64,000 nucleotides of DNA from a virus: the IMG/VR virus record IMGVR_UViG_3300030060_007423, positions 1 to 64,000 of that record. One strand, written 5' to 3'. The position numbers and the translations under genes were made by a program. This document shows, in pieces, positions 7,681-51,154 of this stretch (the stretch's first letter is position 1; every line of letters begins with the position of its first letter). The notes below the pieces were generated by a model. It was given only the letters and a program-made list of their open reading frames with translations, did no database searches and was not told the DNA's origin.

Positions 7681-10128
7681 ATGATTAAGGAAAACAATAT
7701 GCAATTAGGAAACTGGCTAGCTGAACAAATACTTTTAGAGCAATCTAATATAAAAACCGTTGTTGCAATTTACCCAGGTAGATTTCAACCAATGGGAAAA
7801 CATCATGCACAAACCTACCGTGCACTAACATCAAAGTTTGATGATGTTTGGGTTGCAACAAGTGGAAAGGTTAGTCTTCCAAAGTCACCGTTTTCTTTTG
7901 GCGAAAAAAAGAAGATAATAAACTCTCATGGAATATCAAAGGTAAAACAGGTCAAAAATCCATACCAAGCTACAGAGATATTAAATAAGTATGACCCAGA
8001 AACAACAGCTGCCGTATTCATTGTTGGTAAGAAAGATGCAAGCAGATTAGGGGGCAAGTTTTTTAGGCCCTGGAAGGGTAAAGCACAAATCGGATATAAG
8101 GATGGCGCATATACATATATAGCACCACATGTGTCCCTAAGTGTTCCAGGCTATGGAGAAATGAGTGGAACTGCAATACGCAAAGCTCTAGGCGATACAT
8201 CACTTGAAAAGAAAGATAAAGTAAAAGTATTTAAGGGAATATTTGGCCACACAAAAAATTATGATTTCATTGTAAAGAAACTTGAAAAGTTAAATGAGAT
8301 TGTTGAAGGCTTTGTAAATAGTTTTGATTTTAGTAAATTTATTAATGAAACATCAGCAACACCAAATAATAATTCAGATGTAGATGATGGACCAAGATAT
8401 TTTTATGGCTATCAAAAAGCGTATAGGGAATCCACAGCTGAGATTGCAAAGAGCTTAGGTATGAGTGTATTAAATTATATTGTTGGTGATGAAGAGTTTT
8501 TTCAACATGACACTGTATACCCTAATGGTCCAACTGGTGCCGTTTCATATTTTCCAACAGGTGTACCCGGCCAACAAACTGGTACAAATGTTTACAAAGA
8601 CTCAGTTGGAAAAGTTGCATATAAAAAATACATAGAACACATTTCAGCTGTTGCACAACAAGTTGGTTATAAGTTTATTGATTTTATTAGTTTAGATAAA
8701 TTTATAGATGATAGCCCAGACGAACCAAAAAACATTACCAAATATGATTTAACAGAAAACATAAATTTACCAATAGAGGTTGGTGATACTGTTATGATGG
8801 GAAAGTTCAAAAATAAAAAAGTTGTTGTTAAAGATATATCTTGGAATGATAAGGGTGACTTATTAATAAATGGAAGACCTGCATTAAAAATTAGAATACC
8901 TAAAAAACAAAATATATTTAATGAAGGTTTAATTTTAGAAGGCGGTGCATACGGTCATATGTCTCACCCATTTGATGATAAAGGATTAACATTTGGTGAT
9001 TTCAAAAAAATAATTGAACTAGGACTTCAAGGAAGTATAGATTTAGAACAATCAGCAACTGAAAAAACAGATGGTCAAAATTTATTTATTAGTTGGAATA
9101 ATAAATTAGTTGCTGCAAGAAATACTGGTGATATAAAGCGTGGTGGAAAAGATTCTAAAGCAATTGCAAAAAAGTTTGCTGGCAGAGGAAATATAGAAAA
9201 AGCATTTAATTATGCAATGAGAGATTTATCAAAGGCAATTGGTGGATTGAGTGATAAACAAAAAAAGAAAATATTTGATGATGGAAACAACTGGGTGAAT
9301 ATGGAAATAATGTACCCGGCATCCTCAAATGTAATTAATTATGATGCACCATATTTACAATTTCACAATGTATTAAAATATAAAAATGGAAGTGCAGTTG
9401 GTGCCGTACATGATGGTGCAAGAATATTGGCTGGAATGGTTAAGCAAACAAATCAAAATGTACAAAAAAGTTTTAGTGTTATTGGACCTAAAATATTAAA
9501 GGTTAAACCTCATCAAGATTTTGGTGCAAAAAAATCATACTTTATTGGAAAGCTTAATAAATTGATGTCAAAATATAATATGGGAAATAGTAATACATTT
9601 GGCGAATATCATCAGGCATGGTGGGAAGATTATGTTGAAAAGAATTTAGGTGCAGTTGACAATACAATAAAGATGGGCTTGGTTAAACGCTGGGCATTTT
9701 TTGATAAATCATTTAGGTTAAATTCAAAAACAATTCCAGATAAAGACATCTTGACAAAAGTTATTGAAATTGACAAACAAAAACATGTAGACCAAGTAAA
9801 GAAAAATATGTTTCCATTTGAAACTTTGTTTTTTGAATTAGGTGCCGAGGTACTTAAAAATGTAGAAGGCTTTCTAGCCGGAAATCCAGAAAAAGCAGTT
9901 CAAAATGTTAGAAGACAAGTTGCAAAAGCAATTGGTGATGTTAGAAAAGGCGGTGACCTAAAAAAATTAAATAGATTAACACAACAACTTGAAAAGATAA
10001 AGGCTATTGGTGGATTCAAAACAATCATACCAAGTGAAGGTTTAGTTTTTATTTATAAAGGAAAAACATATAAGTTAACAGGAAGCTTTGGACCAGTAAA
10101 TCAAATCACTGGATTGATGAGCTTTTAG
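7681..10128 (+). CDS. Fusion of a cytidylyltransferase-like domain and a ligase-like (KxDG) nucleotidyltransferase domain; probable internal head protein
   Basis: N-terminal YPGRFQPMGKHH and MSGTAIR; C-terminal EGGAYGHMSHP, TEKTDG, EGLVF, YKLTG; alternative start at 7699 has AAGGA upstream. Confidence 0.7.
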   Translation: MIKENNMQLGNWLAEQILLEQSNIKTVVAIYPGRFQPMGKHHAQTYRALTSKFDDVWVATSGKVSLPKSPFSFGEKKKIINSHGISKVKQVKNPYQATEILNKYDPETTAAVFIVGKKDASRLGGKFFRPWKGKAQIGYKDGAYTYIAPHVSLSVPGYGEMSGTAIRKALGDTSLEKKDKVKVFKGIFGHTKNYDFIVKKLEKLNEIVEGFVNSFDFSKFINETSATPNNNSDVDDGPRYFYGYQKAYRESTAEIAKSLGMSVLNYIVGDEEFFQHDTVYPNGPTGAVSYFPTGVPGQQTGTNVYKDSVGKVAYKKYIEHISAVAQQVGYKFIDFISLDKFIDDSPDEPKNITKYDLTENINLPIEVGDTVMMGKFKNKKVVVKDISWNDKGDLLINGRPALKIRIPKKQNIFNEGLILEGGAYGHMSHPFDDKGLTFGDFKKIIELGLQGSIDLEQSATEKTDGQNLFISWNNKLVAARNTGDIKRGGKDSKAIAKKFAGRGNIEKAFNYAMRDLSKAIGGLSDKQKKKIFDDGNNWVNMEIMYPASSNVINYDAPYLQFHNVLKYKNGSAVGAVHDGARILAGMVKQTNQNVQKSFSVIGPKILKVKPHQDFGAKKSYFIGKLNKLMSKYNMGNSNTFGEYHQAWWEDYVEKNLGAVDNTIKMGLVKRWAFFDKSFRLNSKTIPDKDILTKVIEIDKQKHVDQVKKNMFPFETLFFELGAEVLKNVEGFLAGNPEKAVQNVRRQVAKAIGDVRKGGDLKKLNRLTQQLEKIKAIGGFKTIIPSEGLVFIYKGKTYKLTGSFGPVNQITGLMSF

Positions 10129-47821: not shown

Positions 47822-48598
47822 ATGGCACTAGATTTAGAAGCAATCAGACAGAAGTTAAACAAACTTCAAACACAGACGGGAAAACAAGACAATTTATGGA
47901 AACCCGAACCAGGAAAAAATCAAATTAGAATTGTACCTTATCAGCATAATAAAGACAATCCGTTTTTAGAAATGTATTTTCATTATGATTTAGGTAAAAA
48001 GAACTACTTATCACCTGTAACATTTGGTGAAGCTGACCCAGCAGTTGAATTTGCTGAAAAGTTAAAAGCTACAGGAAATAAGGACGATTGGCAAATGTCA
48101 AGAAAGTTAGAACCAAAAATGAGAACTTATGTTCCTATTCTTGTAAGAGGAAAGGAATCAGAAGGTGTTAAATATTGGGGATTTGGAAAAACAGTTTACC
48201 AAGAATTATTAAGTTTTATAGCTGACCCAGACTATGGTGATATTACGGACTTAAGTGGAGGTAGAGATGTTGTTGTTGAATACCATACACCTGAAGAAGC
48301 AGGTAATAGCTTTGGTAAAACTACTATTAGAGTTAAGCCAAACCAAACTGCTGCAACAGAAGATAAAAATGTTGCTGAAAAAATTCTAAATGGACAAAAA
48401 GATATTTTTGAAATCTTTAGAAAAGTTTCTTATGGTGACTTAAAGCAAGCTTTAGAAGAATGGTTAAACCCAGATGGTGATACAGGTGGAGCTCCACAAG
48501 TTGATACACCAGCACAATCTACTTCACAAAAGGTAGAGTCACAAGGTGTAAAATCATCTGATGATATTAACAAAGCGTTTGACGATTTATTTAGTTAG
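47822..48598 (+). CDS. Single-stranded DNA-binding protein, gp32-like
   Basis: WKP..G...IRIVP, YGDITD, acidic tail ending FDDLFS; upstream of recA. Confidence 0.8.
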   Translation: MALDLEAIRQKLNKLQTQTGKQDNLWKPEPGKNQIRIVPYQHNKDNPFLEMYFHYDLGKKNYLSPVTFGEADPAVEFAEKLKATGNKDDWQMSRKLEPKMRTYVPILVRGKESEGVKYWGFGKTVYQELLSFIADPDYGDITDLSGGRDVVVEYHTPEEAGNSFGKTTIRVKPNQTAATEDKNVAEKILNGQKDIFEIFRKVSYGDLKQALEEWLNPDGDTGGAPQVDTPAQSTSQKVESQGVKSSDDINKAFDDLFS

Positions 48599-48608
48599 GA
48601 GATAGTAT

Positions 48609-49736
48609 ATGGCAAAGAAAGTAAATACAAAGAGAGATGATTTAGCAAATTTGTTGGCAGATAGTCTTAACAAAAAGTTCAAGGACTATAAAGTTGCTTA
48701 CTTTCTTGACGGTACAGAAGAAACACCAACTGACTTAACAGAGTGGATTAGTACTGGGTCATCTATGCTTGACTTGGCAATTTCTAACAGAAAAAATGGT
48801 GGTATACCAGTTGGTAGAATTACTGAAATAACTGGTCTTGAAGGTAGTGGAAAGAGTCTTATGGCTGCTCACCTACTTGCAAATACACAAAAACAAGGTG
48901 GACTTGCAGTTTACATTGATACAGAAAATGCAATGAATGAAGAATTTGCTACGGCAATTGGAATTGATGTTGCAAATATGTTATATATTCAATTGGAAAC
49001 TGTTGAGGAAATTTTTGAGGTTATGGAAAACATCATCACTAAAGTTAGAGAAAGCGATAAAGATAGGCTTGTTACAATAGTTGTAGATTCATTGGCTGGC
49101 TCAACAACCAAAGTTGAGAGTGAGGCTGATTATAGCAAAGATGGCTGGGCAACCAGTAAGGCAATTATTTTATCAAAGGCTATGCGTAAGATTACTCAAA
49201 TGATAGGAAGGCAGAGAATTTGTCTCGTATTTACAAACCAACTTAGACAAAAGATGGGGGTTATGTTTGGTGATCCTTGGACTACATCTGGAGGTAAGGC
49301 AGTAGCTTTCCATTCCAGTTGTAGACTAAGGCTAAAACCTATGGGACAAATAAAAGCCAGAGTTGATGGTCAAGAACAAGTTATGGGTATTAAAACCGTT
49401 GCACAAGTTGTAAAAAATAGAATGGGCCCACCATTAAGAAAGTCACAATTTGAAATTTATTTTGAAAGTGGTATTGATGATTTTGGTGGATGGTTACATG
49501 TTCTAAAAGATTACAAACTTGTTAAGCAAGGTGGTAGTTGGTACACATATACTGACCAAAATGGTAAGGACCATAAATTTATGTCAAAGGATTGGAATTC
49601 ATTATTGGAAAACAATGAAGAACTAAGAACAGAAATTTATGATAAAATTGCAGATACAATTATTATGAATTACAAAGTTGATAATTTTGGAATTGATGAT
49701 GTTGAAATCAGCAGTGAACCAGTACCAGAAGGATAA
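48609..49736 (+). CDS. recA: RecA/UvsX recombinase
   Basis: ISTGS..LD, GLEGSGKS, IDTENA, VVDSLA, NQLR, SGGKAV.F, VKNR. Confidence 0.96.
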   Translation: MAKKVNTKRDDLANLLADSLNKKFKDYKVAYFLDGTEETPTDLTEWISTGSSMLDLAISNRKNGGIPVGRITEITGLEGSGKSLMAAHLLANTQKQGGLAVYIDTENAMNEEFATAIGIDVANMLYIQLETVEEIFEVMENIITKVRESDKDRLVTIVVDSLAGSTTKVESEADYSKDGWATSKAIILSKAMRKITQMIGRQRICLVFTNQLRQKMGVMFGDPWTTSGGKAVAFHSSCRLRLKPMGQIKARVDGQEQVMGIKTVAQVVKNRMGPPLRKSQFEIYFESGIDDFGGWLHVLKDYKLVKQGGSWYTYTDQNGKDHKFMSKDWNSLLENNEELRTEIYDKIADTIIMNYKVDNFGIDDVEISSEPVPEG

Positions 49737-49742
49737 TAGGTT

Positions 49743-49998
49743 ATGAATAAGTAATTGGTGGCTAACCCCACCTTTTACTTCGTCTTACACAACAACAGCC
49801 TTCTCGTGGCGTAGGATGTTAAGGTCAAAAATCCGCACTTATCGAATGATTATTTGACCGACCAATGTTGTTAACGAGTGATTTGTCTTTGGCCAAGTGA
49901 CCCCAAAGCAAATTTATGATTAAGGTATATGTGGCTGATACCAATTGTTCTCTAATCGTCACTGTTGGAGATACTATAAACATATACTATGTCAGCTT
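49743..49998 (+). ncRNA. Putative structured non-coding RNA of unknown class
   Basis: Largest ORF-free gap, richer in GC than its flanks, several nested stems, followed by a terminator. Confidence 0.6.
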
Positions 49999-50000
49999 GG

Positions 50001-50039
50001 AAGCCCTGGATTTGTTTTATCAATGAAGGGGCTTTTTTT
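50001..50039 (+). terminator. Intrinsic terminator
   Basis: AAGCCCT ... GGGGCTT stem followed by T run. Confidence 0.75.
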
Positions 50040-50047
50040 ACCAAAAA

Positions 50048-50080
50048 TATTTTTTTATCCCAAATAAAATAGTTATATTA
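50048..50080 (+). promoter_or_regulatory. Early-type promoter motif, copy 5
   Basis: TATTTTTTTATCC-CAAATAAAATA-GTTATATTA. Confidence 0.6.
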
Positions 50081-50104
50081 TACTAAACAAAAAGATAATA
50101 GCAT

Positions 50105-51154
50105 ATGTCAAAAAGCAGATACTTTTCAATACTTGAAACACTACAGGAGAATACTGATACTCCTTCTAACCCCAATGATAGAATATTAATCGTTGACGGG
50201 CTAAATACATTTATCAGAGCATTTGCAGCAAACCCAGTAACAAATGAAGATGGAATACATGTTGGTGGAATAACTGGTACACTAATGTCAATTGGATACG
50301 CAATAAAACAAATTAAACCAACACGTGTTATTATTTGTTTTGATGGAAAAGGTGGTAGCCAAAGAAGAAGAAAAATATTTCCAGATTATAAAGCAAATCG
50401 TAGAGTAAAATCTAGGCTTACACGGCATGGAAATCATAATACAATGGAAGATGAATCATTGTCTATGAAACAACAATTAATGAGGTGTGCTCAATATTTA
50501 CAACAATTACCAGTTACTGTTTTAAGTGTTGAAAATATTGAAGCAGATGATAGTATGGCATATATTTCTCAACAGGTATATCCTGATAGTCAAAAGTTTA
50601 TTATGTCAACAGATAGGGATTTTTTACAATTAGTATCTGACAAAGTACATGTATGGTCACCAACAAAAAAGAAGTTTTATTTTAAGGAAACAATAATGGA
50701 AGAGTATGGTATACCATCTCATAACTTTTTATTATATAGAACAATTGAAGGTGATGCATCTGATAATATCCCAGGAATTAGAGGTGCAGGTAGAAAAACC
50801 ATTGCAAATAGAATTCCTATAATAACAGAGAACAGGACAGTAACTATTGATGAAATAATTGATTTTACAGCACAAAATTCAAAATATAAAATATTAAAAA
50901 CAATTTCTGAATCAAAAGAATTGTTAGATATGAATTATAAACTAATGCAATTAGATGAGGTAGATATATCAGGTTCAGCAAAGACAAAGATAATGAATAC
51001 AGTAAGGTCACCTATCCAACGATTAGTAAAATATGAATTTCAAAAAATGATTTTAGAAGACAAAATCAATGGTTCAATTAAAAACCCAGACTTATGGTTA
51101 AAGCAAGTATTTTTACCATTAGACTCTTATGCAGGAATGACAAATGACAAGTAG
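50105..51154 (+). CDS. 5'-3' exonuclease / flap endonuclease (PolI N-terminal or T4 RNase H family)
   Basis: LIVDG, FDG, YKANR, EADD, STDRDFLQL, GDASDNIPG. Confidence 0.93.
   Translation: MSKSRYFSILETLQENTDTPSNPNDRILIVDGLNTFIRAFAANPVTNEDGIHVGGITGTLMSIGYAIKQIKPTRVIICFDGKGGSQRRRKIFPDYKANRRVKSRLTRHGNHNTMEDESLSMKQQLMRCAQYLQQLPVTVLSVENIEADDSMAYISQQVYPDSQKFIMSTDRDFLQLVSDKVHVWSPTKKKFYFKETIMEEYGIPSHNFLLYRTIEGDASDNIPGIRGAGRKTIANRIPIITENRTVTIDEIIDFTAQNSKYKILKTISESKELLDMNYKLMQLDEVDISGSAKTKIMNTVRSPIQRLVKYEFQKMILEDKINGSIKNPDLWLKQVFLPLDSYAGMTNDK

What the first reader, a model, noticed from the sequence alone, without database searches (positions are those of the whole stretch)
49743..50039. Unannotated ~300-nt multi-domain structured RNA downstream of recA
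Seen: the largest non-coding gap in a gene-dense genome folds by eye into hairpin 1 (AAGTAA 49749-54 / TTACTT 49775-80; GGTGG / CCACC); a three-way junction (ACAAC 49789-93 / GTTGT 49867-71; AACAGCCT / AGGATGTT; GGTCAAA-AATC 49823-33 / GATT-A-TTTGACC 49848-59); a second junction (AAC-G-AGTGAT 49873-82 / GTCACT-GTT 49958-66; CTTTGG / CCAAAG; GATTA / TAATC; GGTAT / ATACC). Two 3' segments, ACATATAC 49980-87 and TGTCAGCT 49990-97, are complementary to GTATATGT 49924-31 and GGCTGATA 49933-40 in crossed order, implying a pseudoknot or switch. G-U pairs and the terminator favour a + strand RNA. It matches no tRNA, tmRNA or small ribozyme core I recognise. Inference: a novel phage ncRNA in the SSB-RecA transcript, or an origin-associated RNA.
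Basis: partly seen in the sequence, partly recalled or inferred. Interest (0 to 1): 0.82.

Follow-up and report, generated by a model that had tools for sequence, protein, structure and literature searches.

The report
HDV-like ribozyme fused to unknown RNA
The gap behind this uncultured marine phage's recA gene holds a hepatitis-delta-type self-cutting ribozyme (a known kind, missed by Rfam) joined to a second, strongly conserved folded RNA that matches no known family and whose job is still open.

Summary
The structured RNA is real, lies on the + strand, and is a composite of four parts.
- **Hairpin:** 49749-49780.
- **Ribozyme (module A):** an HDV-like self-cleaving ribozyme, 49782-49872. 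The predicted cut is C49781|G49782 and the candidate catalytic C is 49862.
- **Module B:** a ~125-nt multi-helix RNA with a kissing loop, 49875-49999, with no Rfam match.
- **Terminator:** 50000-50039.

Both modules recur, alone or together and in either order, in the recA-to-exonuclease spacer of related phage contigs. Other relatives have a spacer of only 17-34 nt.

Covariation supports both folds. For the ribozyme, 94.9% of cells are paired against 36-45% in slid controls. For module B the figures are 81.5% against 31-46%.

Contigs from marine RNA libraries (two samples, one study) begin their match exactly at G49782, the cut site I had written down beforehand. This is a weak hint of cleavage.

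Its statement that no ribozyme core is present is wrong.

My reading is that self-cleavage separates the recA message, which then ends in a hairpin, from a ribozyme-plus-B RNA. The function of B is unknown. A stable ncRNA derived from the 3'-UTR is most likely, and I found no antiterminator.

This scan has noted HDV-like ribozymes in other phages before, so the ribozyme is a new member of a known kind. Module B is the new part.

The parts
49749..49780 (+). Hairpin 1: AAGUAA/UUACUU plus GGUGG/CCACC, with loop CUAACC. It ends one nucleotide before the predicted cut and would become the 3' end of the recA message.
   Evidence: Read from the sequence and present in the MFE fold. The inner stem plus U-rich tail is flagged as terminator-like. 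In most ribozyme copies of relatives a stable hairpin of unrelated sequence ends 1-3 nt before the cut site.
49782..49872 (+). HDV-like self-cleaving ribozyme (module A).
- P1: 49782-88 / 49811-17, with first pair G49782.U49817
- P2: 49791-97 / 49866-72
- P3: 49798-800 / 49808-10
- L3: UUCUCGU, 49801-07
- P1.1: C49803-G49818, plus U49802.U49819
- P4: 49823-33 / 49848-59
- J4/2: 49860-65
The predicted cut lies between C49781 and G49782.
   Evidence: Alignment A1 holds 37 distinct copies. Pair counts: 94.9% paired against 36-45% when slid, and 14 pairs with compensatory change (0 of 500 shuffles reach this). P1 and P3 are 100% paired and the P1.1 C-G pair is invariant. Contigs from RNA libraries begin their match at 49782.
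49862..49862 (+). Candidate catalytic cytosine, equivalent to C75 of HDV. It is the first C of the C-N-R-A run before the 3' strand of P2.
   Evidence: Invariant in all 37 distinct copies, while the next two positions vary (C/U and A/G). The pattern used to collect copies did not specify this position. Published work places the catalytic C at the first position of J4/2 (PMC10879173).
49875..49999 (+). Module B, a conserved multi-helix RNA of no known family.
- P0: 49875-79 / 49995-99
- Pa outer stem: 49880-85 / 49909-14
- Pa inner stem: 49887-92 / 49903-08
- Z: 49917-20 / 49991-94
- X: 49925-32 / 49980-87
- Invariant internal loop: GGCUGAUACCAAUU 49933-46 opposite UAUAA 49975-79
- Pin: 49947-52 / 49968-74
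- Kissing loop: AGUGAC 49896-49901 with GUCACU 49958-63
   Evidence: Model R2 was built only from relatives and finds the window copy at 49871-50009 (39.3 bits, E 9e-6). Pair counts on A4: 81.5% paired against 31-46% when slid, and 33 of 43 pairs with compensatory change. Kissing-loop covariation is shown. The MFE fold of the window sequence alone gives the same architecture.
50000..50039 (+). Intrinsic terminator: a stem of about 50000-07 / 50028-35 around a large loop, followed by U7 at 50033-39.
   Evidence: MFE folds. Every module B copy of groups 1, 2, 3 and 5 is followed 2-9 nt later by a strong hairpin plus U run, and the stem sequence differs between groups.
50040..50104 (+). AT-rich spacer ahead of the 5'-3' exonuclease gene (start 50105). 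It probably holds that gene's own promoter and ribosome-binding site.
   Evidence: Inference from position. Part of the spacer recurs in L001-L003. No sigma-70 consensus match on the + strand was found.

Best explanation
The region is a four-part RNA island in the 3' untranslated part of the gp32-recA transcript.

Transcription runs past the recA stop codon (49734-36) through hairpin 1, the ribozyme and module B, and stops at the terminator at 50000-50039.

The 91-nt HDV-like ribozyme folds into its nested double pseudoknot. It cuts its own 5' edge between C49781 and G49782, with C49862 acting as general acid.

This leaves two products:
- the recA message, ending in hairpin 1 with a 2',3'-cyclic phosphate;
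- an RNA of roughly 230-260 nt with a 5'-hydroxyl, made of the ribozyme, module B and the terminator.

Module B is an independent, compactly folded domain. A closing stem brings its ends together. An invariant internal loop is held between two helices, and a 6-bp kissing loop ties its two hairpins.

I think B most likely acts as a stable non-coding RNA whose ends are set by the ribozyme and the terminator. In some relatives the ribozyme sits on B's 3' side instead.

**Shown:** conservation, covariation of both folds, modular occurrence, and invariance of the catalytic-site residues.
**Weakly indicated:** an RNA end at G49782.
**Inferred:** cleavage chemistry, stabilisation of the recA message, and any function of module B.
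For: **Ribozyme fold**
- The topology P1/P1.1/P2/P3/P4 is kept in 37 distinct copies. 94.9% of cells are paired, against 36-45% for slid partners. 14 pairs show compensatory change, which 0 of 500 shuffles reach.
- In the window and L001, P2 has an entirely different sequence (AACAACA/UGUUGUU) from the other copies (AAAGGC/GCCUUU) but still pairs.
- G+1 and the J4/2 cytosine are invariant. The first P1 pair is G.U in 34 of 37 copies.
- L3 (UUCNCGU) and the single C-G plus U.U P1.1 resemble active HDV-like ribozymes. The Ackermannviridae ribozyme, whose P1.1 is one Watson-Crick pair plus U:U, cleaves at 4.2 per min (PMC13635239).

**RNA end at the predicted cut site**
- I recorded the cut site in notes, before laying reads.
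- Three contigs from marine RNA libraries then began their match exactly at 49782. They come from two samples of one study. One is a variant carrying the compensatory P4 change C49826T/G49856A.

**Context of the ribozyme in relatives**
- A hairpin ends 1-3 nt before the cut site in most copies.
- The ribozyme always lies behind a stop codon. In relatives it is followed by an ORF, by tRNA-Ala or by a U tract.

**Module B**
- 81.5% of cells are paired against 31-46% when slid, and 33 of 43 pairs show compensatory change.
- The kissing-loop pairs are GGUGAC/GUCACC, GAUGGC/GUCAUC, AGUGAC/GUCACU, UAUAGC/GCUAUA and GGAUGC/GCAACC.
- In group 4 relatives, P0 of B ends 3-5 nt before the ribozyme's cut site, so cleavage would trim B's 3' end.

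**Strand**
- Many G.U pairs would be A.C mismatches on the other strand.
Against: - No Rfam HDV model reaches its threshold. The best is HDV-F-prausnitzii at 15.5 bits, E 2.4, covering only 49782-49829. A scan of relatives gave nothing.
- Self-cleavage has not been assayed.
- The RNA evidence comes from assembled contigs of a single study. Contigs cannot prove an RNA end, a strand or even transcription. Each also carries 2-3 unaligned letters at its upstream end.
- The alignment used for module B was fitted to the model structure, which favours pairing.
- The function of module B rests on context only. It is found solely in this one spacer, which would also fit a cis-acting role.
- In group 2 relatives the terminator behind B is followed at once by the exonuclease gene's ribosome-binding site, with no room for a promoter. 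B plus its terminator must therefore affect downstream expression there.
Confidence: 0.72

Rival explanations
1. Module B is a cis-acting sensor, such as a riboswitch or a protein-binding attenuator. It would set how much transcription reads through the following terminator into the exonuclease-helicase-ribonucleotide reductase genes. The ribozyme would be an unrelated neighbour.
For: - B is tied to this one spacer.
- In groups 1, 2, 3 and 5 it is always followed within 2-9 nt by a strong terminator.
- In group 2 the exonuclease ribosome-binding site follows the terminator directly.
- An invariant internal loop clamped by a distal loop-loop contact is a common aptamer design (established knowledge of purine-type riboswitches).
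- The invariant strand GCUG can also pair with a conserved (C/U)AGC in the 3' strands, which would allow a switch.
Against: - No segment of B is complementary to either terminator arm in a way kept across groups, and P0 does not overlap the terminator.
- In group 4, B is followed by the ribozyme and a tRNA rather than by a terminator.
- In the window the exonuclease gene has its own 65-nt AT-rich upstream region.
- The alternative pairing shows no covariation.
Confidence: 0.2
2. Module B is itself a second self-cleaving ribozyme of an undescribed class, cutting within its invariant strand near C49935|U49936.
For: - Different self-cleaving classes tend to sit side by side (established from the discovery of twister-sister, hatchet and pistol).
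- A and B replace each other at the same genomic site.
- The deepest RNA-library contig spans exactly 49782-49935 and ends inside the invariant GCUGAUACC.
Against: - Contigs of two other samples run across 49935/36, and a contig end proves little.
- No match to any ribozyme family even at E 10.
- The CUGAUAC...GAAA resemblance to the hammerhead core fails at its essential G8/A9 positions and in topology (sequence reading).
Confidence: 0.07
3. The RNA end at 49782 is a transcription start, or an assembly break. The HDV-like fold would then be a structural 5' leader of module B that does not cleave.
For: - The evidence for the end is contigs only, from one study.
- Hairpin 1 looks like a terminator that could end recA transcripts just upstream.
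Against: - The sequence upstream of the cut site is not conserved among 37 copies, being varied hairpins with no shared promoter motif.
- G+1, the L3 cytosine and the J4/2 cytosine are invariant, as expected for catalysis.
- In many relatives the element lies about 20 nt behind one ORF and about 25-35 nt before the next, leaving no room for a promoter.
Confidence: 0.08
4. The region is an origin-associated or DNA-level element, or a plain spacer holding only a terminator and a promoter.
For: It lies among replication genes (gp32, recA, exonuclease, DnaB). Some relatives carry only a terminator plus a promoter-like motif here.
Against: - Compensatory changes including G.U pairs point to an RNA read from the + strand.
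- Relatives with spacers of 17-34 nt lack the element altogether.
Confidence: 0.02

Closest known systems
HDV / CPEB3 / HDV-like (delta-like) self-cleaving ribozymes (Rfam RF00094, RF00622, RF02682)
   Same: - Nested double pseudoknot with a 7-bp P1 that starts with a G.U pair.
- 3-bp P3 closed by a 7-nt L3. UUCNCGU here resembles the CPEB3 loop, as recalled from memory.
- A P1.1 pair from the L3 cytosine to the G just after P1.
- A P4 hairpin, and C-N-R-A in J4/2 before the 3' strand of P2.
- Cleavage at the ribozyme's own 5' edge.
   Different: - It scores below every Rfam HDV model (15.5 bits at best).
- P4 is long (10 bp with a conserved internal bulge) and carries a conserved loop, CC(U/G)CAC.
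- P1.1 has only one Watson-Crick pair plus U.U.
- The host is an uncultured marine dsDNA phage.
Theta ribozymes, the minimal HDV-like ribozymes of gut Caudoviricetes (Kienbeck et al. 2024, PMC10879173)
   Same: Both are phage-encoded HDV-like ribozymes that define the end of a neighbouring RNA. In group 4 relatives the ribozyme sits 3-5 nt behind the closing stem of module B, much as theta ribozymes sit behind tRNAs.
   Different: - Theta ribozymes are minimal, with a short or absent P4, and mostly follow tRNA genes.
- This one has a full P4. It follows a protein gene or module B.
- Where a tRNA is present (L029, L042, L076), the tRNA lies downstream of the ribozyme.
HDV ribozyme of an Ackermannviridae phage (crystal structure and kinetics, PMC13635239)
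   Same: Both are HDV-type ribozymes of dsDNA phages. Both have a weakened P1.1 of one Watson-Crick pair stacked on a U:U pair, which still allows fast cleavage.
   Different: The phage lineage and the sequence are different. No biological role was assigned there. Here the genomic context (a hairpin upstream, a structured RNA downstream) is defined.
3'-UTR-derived small RNAs that share the mRNA's terminator, and riboswitch aptamers clamped by loop-loop contacts (comparison for module B only)
   Same: - Position at the end of an mRNA just before an intrinsic terminator.
- A closing stem.
- A conserved internal loop held by a distal kissing loop.
   Different: - No sequence or model similarity to any Rfam family.
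- No antiterminator, no identified ligand and no identified target.
- One end is set by a ribozyme rather than by RNase E.

Membership tests
HDV-like self-cleaving ribozymes | Nested double-pseudoknot secondary structure (P1, P1.1, P2, P3, P4 in the canonical order) | tested here: met
   all five helices are present in 37 distinct copies. 94.9% of cells are paired against 36-45% when slid. There are compensatory changes in P1 (4 of 7 pairs), P2, P3 and P4.
HDV-like self-cleaving ribozymes | Cleavage site directly 5' of a G that opens P1, usually as a G.U wobble | tested here: met
   G at the first P1 position is invariant. The pair is G.U in 34 of 37 copies and G-C in 3. In the window it is G49782.U49817.
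HDV-like self-cleaving ribozymes | Catalytic cytosine at the first position of J4/2 | tested here: met
   C49862 is invariant in 37 of 37 copies while its neighbours vary. The position was not part of the search pattern. The definition comes from PMC10879173.
HDV-like self-cleaving ribozymes | P1.1 formed between L3 and the nucleotides following P1 | tested here: met
   C49803-G49818 is invariant as C-G. The second position is U.U, as in the active Ackermannviridae ribozyme.
HDV-like self-cleaving ribozymes | Match to a curated covariance model (Rfam HDV_ribozyme, CPEB3, HDV-F-prausnitzii, drz families) | tested here: not met
   No hit at gathering score. The best is RF02682 at 15.5 bits against a 44-bit cut-off, E 2.4. 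There was no hit in relatives. These models are narrow, and the class is usually defined by a structure descriptor.
HDV-like self-cleaving ribozymes | Self-cleavage giving a 5'-OH product that starts at G+1, abolished by C-to-U at the catalytic site | tested here: inconclusive
   Three RNA-library contigs (two samples, one study) begin their match at 49782. Contigs cannot prove an RNA end.
Theta ribozymes (tRNA-associated minimal HDV-like) | Minimal form with reduced P4, located directly behind a tRNA gene | tested here: not met
   P4 has 10 bp plus a 14-nt loop. There is no tRNA in the window. In L029, L042 and L076 the tRNA-Ala lies downstream of the ribozyme.
Transcription-terminating riboswitch (considered for module B) | Aptamer whose closing-stem strand or another segment competes with the terminator (antiterminator) | tested here: not met
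   Terminators start 2-9 nt after P0 and share no conserved complementarity with B across groups.
Any Rfam family (module B) | Covariance-model match | tested here: not met
   There were no matches for the window region at E up to 10, other than chance snoRNA and miRNA hits. Four representative relatives gave none at E up to 1.

The most novel reading that the evidence does not exclude
Module B is a new class of functional RNA. It could be a ligand- or protein-sensing domain, a decoy against host defence, or a second catalytic RNA that cuts near C49935|U49936. Marine phages would then package it as a swappable RNA cassette whose ends are cut to size by an HDV-like ribozyme. The ribozyme-plus-B chimera would be an abundant phage small RNA in the ocean.
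Probability: 0.2. Interest if true: 0.85.

Novelty: new variant of a known kind. Interest (0 to 1): 0.62.

Why it matters
- **Biological roles of HDV-like ribozymes.** These are still poorly understood outside retrotransposons and the tRNA-linked theta ribozymes of gut phages. Here a full-size HDV-like ribozyme sits at a defined place in an uncultured marine phage lineage: just behind a protective hairpin at the end of the recA message, and next to a second structured RNA. That gives a concrete, testable role in shaping RNA ends, namely message 3' ends and the ends of a non-coding RNA.
- **A gap in Rfam.** Rfam's HDV models miss this whole subfamily, which has at least 37 distinct copies.
- **Module B as a new RNA family.** It is well supported, with seven helices, a covarying kissing loop and an invariant internal loop. 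It comes with an alignment and a model, which makes it a good candidate for structure probing and ligand or partner searches.
- **A swap site for small RNA genes.** The recA-exonuclease spacer holds the ribozyme, module B, a third motif or tRNA-Ala in different relatives. This is of interest for phage accessory functions.

Tried and rejected
- **Rfam:** no family at gathering score on the whole window. At E up to 10 on 49650-50150 there were only chance hits, plus a sub-threshold HDV-F-prausnitzii hit that served as a lead. Scans of 13 relatives' loci gave nothing.
- **ARAGORN:** no tRNA or tmRNA.
- **blastn against 50,697 phage records:** no match. The nearest cultured phage RecA is only 54% identical, so no host could be named.
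- **RNAalifold on the MAFFT alignment of module B:** it predicted nothing, because the groups were misaligned. I replaced this with a covariance-model alignment.
- **Module B core pattern in IMG/VR and in metagenomes:** every hit outside the recA spacer was a chance match in coding sequence.
- **Second hit of the ribozyme model at 9996-10066 (-):** P1 is broken and it lies antisense inside an 815-aa ORF, so it is spurious.
AACAGCCU/AGGAUGUU, AGUGAU/GUCACU, GAUUA/UAAUC and GGUAU/AUACC are not kept in relatives.
- **The crossed Y-Y' pairing:** pairable but without covariation.
- **Hammerhead reading of CUGAUAC...GAAA:** rejected on core residues and topology.
- **Antiterminator search:** I looked for one between module B and its terminators and found none that is conserved.
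- **RNA libraries:** no contig was laid on 49504-49781 or on the exonuclease gene. Absence of cover in contigs proves nothing and is not used as evidence.
- **Literature searches for a described RNA at this locus:** nothing found.

Full report
**Setting.** The window comes from a 170.8-kb uncultured virus record. Around the finding lie the following + strand genes:
- a gp32-like SSB (47822-48598);
- a RecA (48609-49736);
- a 5'-3' exonuclease (50105-51154);
- a DnaB-type helicase;
- a class II ribonucleotide reductase.

The 368 nt between recA and the exonuclease gene form the longest stretch of the window without an ORF of 60 aa or more. The nearest cultured phage RecA is only 54% identical, and the spacer has no blastn match among 50,697 phage records.

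The decisive material came from relatives. A scan of IMG/VR with the RecA protein gave 430 related loci, of which 80 were fetched. In these the recA-exonuclease spacer ranges from 17 nt to about 410 nt, or about 2 kb where extra genes are inserted.

Similarity searches with the window's spacer split it into two independent modules:
- Module A (about 49782-49872) occurs alone in some loci.
- Module B (about 49875-49999) occurs alone in others.
- Both occur in the window, L001 and L003.
- In L042, L043, L103, L106 and L123 the order is B then A.

**Module A is an HDV-like ribozyme.** Reading the copies side by side shows the canonical order of an HDV-type nested double pseudoknot.

In the window the elements are:
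- P1: G49782-C49788 with G49811-U49817
- P2: 49791-97 with 49866-72
- P3: GCC 49798-800 with GGC 49808-10, closing a 7-nt L3 (UUCUCGU)
- P1.1: C49803-G49818, plus U49802.U49819
- P4: 49823-33 with 49848-59
- J4/2: G-A-C-C-A-A, 49860-65

I collected further copies with a pattern that specified only L3, the segment after P1 and the P4 loop. On the resulting alignment of 37 distinct copies (A1), a structure-aware count gave:
- 94.9% of cells paired, against 36-45% for partners slid by 1-3 columns;
- 14 pairs with changes on both sides, which 0 of 500 shuffles reach;
- P1 and P3 100% paired;
- four of seven P1 pairs covarying, for example A-U to G-C in 11 copies.

P2 has a wholly different sequence in the window and L001 than in all the others, yet still pairs. 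The G at +1, the L3 cytosine that forms P1.1, and the first C of the C-N-R-A run before P2 (C49862) are invariant, while neighbouring positions vary.

Published work places the catalytic cytosine at the first position of J4/2 and uses its mutation as a negative control (PMC10879173). An Ackermannviridae phage HDV ribozyme with one Watson-Crick pair plus a U:U pair in P1.1 cleaves at 4.2 per min (PMC13635239).

Rfam's HDV models do not reach threshold. The best is RF02682 at 15.5 bits. Membership therefore rests on the structural definition, not on a curated model.

A covariance model of the module finds only this one copy in the 170.8-kb record. The second, weak hit is antisense inside an ORF and is spurious.

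**Context of the ribozyme.**
- In most copies a stable hairpin of unrelated sequence ends 1-3 nt before the predicted cut. In the window this is hairpin 1 (49749-49780).
- The element always lies in the recA-to-exonuclease interval, except for three contigs that hold neither gene.
- It sits about 20-70 nt behind a stop codon, either that of recA or that of an inserted 63-65-aa ORF.
- It is followed by a U-rich tract and then by an ORF, by tRNA-Ala(UGC) (L029, L042, L076) or, in the window, by module B.

This is the arrangement expected of an intercistronic processing element. The upstream RNA would end in a hairpin with a cyclic phosphate. The downstream RNA would begin with a folded, 5'-hydroxyl ribozyme.

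**RNA-library evidence.** I wrote the predicted cut site into the notebook before looking for sequencing runs. Four marine metatranscriptome runs of one study hold parts of the stretch.

Laid on 49300-50300, the contigs were:
- Two contigs of one sample, at depth 33 and 6.3 with no mismatches, cover 49782-49935.
- One contig of another sample covers 49782-50010. It is a variant carrying the compensatory P4 change C49826T/G49856A.
- A fourth contig covers 49858-50008.

Three contigs therefore begin their match exactly at G49782.

The limits are clear. These are assembled contigs from one study. They show neither strand nor true ends, each has 2-3 unaligned letters at its upstream end, and DNA can contaminate RNA libraries. 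I treat the result as a weak but pointed hint, because it coincides to the nucleotide with a prior prediction.

The deepest contig ends at 49935, inside the invariant strand of module B. This is unexplained.

**Module B.** The copies fall into five sequence groups. All share the following elements:
- a closing stem P0;
- a long hairpin Pa with an internal loop;
- a helix Z;
- a small hairpin Ps, absent in the window;
- a helix X;
- an invariant internal loop, GCUGA(U/A/C)ACCAA on one strand opposite ACUAGAAA-like on the other;
- a hairpin Pin.

The apical loop of Pa is complementary to the loop of Pin, and the pairing changes between groups:
- GGUGAC/GUCACC
- GAUGGC/GUCAUC
- AGUGAC/GUCACU (the window)
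- AGUGGC/GUCACU
- UAUAGC/GCUAUA
- in groups 2 and 5, GGAGC/GCGCC and GGAUGC/GCAACC, each with a conserved A-purine mismatch

A covariance model built only from groups 1 and 2 recovered the window copy (49871-50009, 39.3 bits, E 9e-6) and also groups 3 and 4.

On the resulting alignment, 81.5% of cells pair against 31-46% when slid. 33 of 43 pairs show compensatory change, and the covariation score is 0.515 against 0.06-0.14. The alignment was fitted to the nested helices, which favours them. The kissing loop was not part of the model.

The minimum-energy fold of the window's own sequence reproduces P0, Pa, Z, X and Pin.

It shows no covariation, and its 3' strand overlaps Z and P0, which covary with other partners. 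It may be an alternative conformer or a coincidence extended in this genome.

**What module B does.**
- It occurs only in this spacer. Every pattern hit elsewhere, in IMG/VR and in metagenomes, was a chance match in coding sequence.
- In groups 1, 2, 3 and 5 a strong terminator follows P0 by 2-9 nt. I could not find a conserved antiterminator.
- In group 4 the ribozyme follows P0 by 3-5 nt, so cleavage would trim B's 3' end, as theta ribozymes do for tRNAs.
- The site also hosts tRNA-Ala and a third conserved motif in other relatives.

I therefore favour a discrete, stable non-coding RNA whose ends are set by the ribozyme and the terminator. I keep a cis-regulatory role as the main rival. The argument for that rival is that in group 2 the exonuclease gene's ribosome-binding site follows the terminator directly.

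**Comparison and novelty.** The ribozyme is a new member of a known class. It differs from the theta ribozymes in its full P4 and in its context. AI notes of this scan report other HDV-like ribozymes punctuating phage operons, or trimming a large non-coding RNA, in other genomes. That agrees with this reading but is not independent evidence. Module B has no counterpart that I could find in Rfam 15 or in the searchable literature.

**Verdict.**
- The whole is a new variant of a known kind: an HDV-like ribozyme joined to an unclassified conserved RNA.

Noticed in passing
L029:1918-1992, L042:3250-3324, L076:1203-1277: A tRNA-Ala(UGC) gene starts 3-4 nt after the 3' strand of the ribozyme's P2 in three relatives. 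The recA-exonuclease spacer therefore also hosts tRNA genes, and here the tRNA lies downstream of the HDV-like ribozyme rather than upstream.
   Followed up: partly
L034:4125-4195; also just upstream of the ribozyme in L087, L088, L098, L101, L116: A third conserved motif ('module C', containing AGGUUNAAGACCGGCAUCA and a GGGAGG...CCCUCCCC helix) occupies the same spacer in other relatives. It is followed either by a terminator or by the ribozyme. It has no Rfam hit.
   Followed up: no
window 49935/49936: The deepest RNA-library contig (depth 33) ends exactly between C49935 and U49936, inside the invariant GCUGAUACC strand of module B. Contigs of two other samples run across this place.
   Followed up: partly
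L063:4946-5143, L083, L085-L091, L111 and others: In relatives with inserted genes, the ribozyme follows a conserved small ORF of 63-65 aa by about 20 nt and precedes another ORF of 114-144 aa by about 25-35 nt. Neither ORF was identified.
   Followed up: no
L023, L049, L067, L081, L103, L106, L120, L211 (downstream of the terminator or the ribozyme U tract): The motif TTGTTAATAACTTTT recurs just upstream of the exonuclease gene in many relatives and is probably a phage promoter element. The window has a different AT-rich sequence there (AAATATTTTTTTATCCCAAA, 50045-50064, a single copy in the window).
   Followed up: no
L009:3419-3655: One relative carries a small protein-coding ORF, preceded by a ribosome-binding site, in the recA-exonuclease spacer in place of any RNA module.
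   Followed up: no
window 9996-10066 (-): There is a weak match (21.8 bits) of the ribozyme model, sharing ACCUUCAC.UGGU and ACCAAUAGCCUUU. It is antisense inside the 815-aa ORF 7681-10128, P1 is absent, and I judge it spurious.
   Followed up: yes
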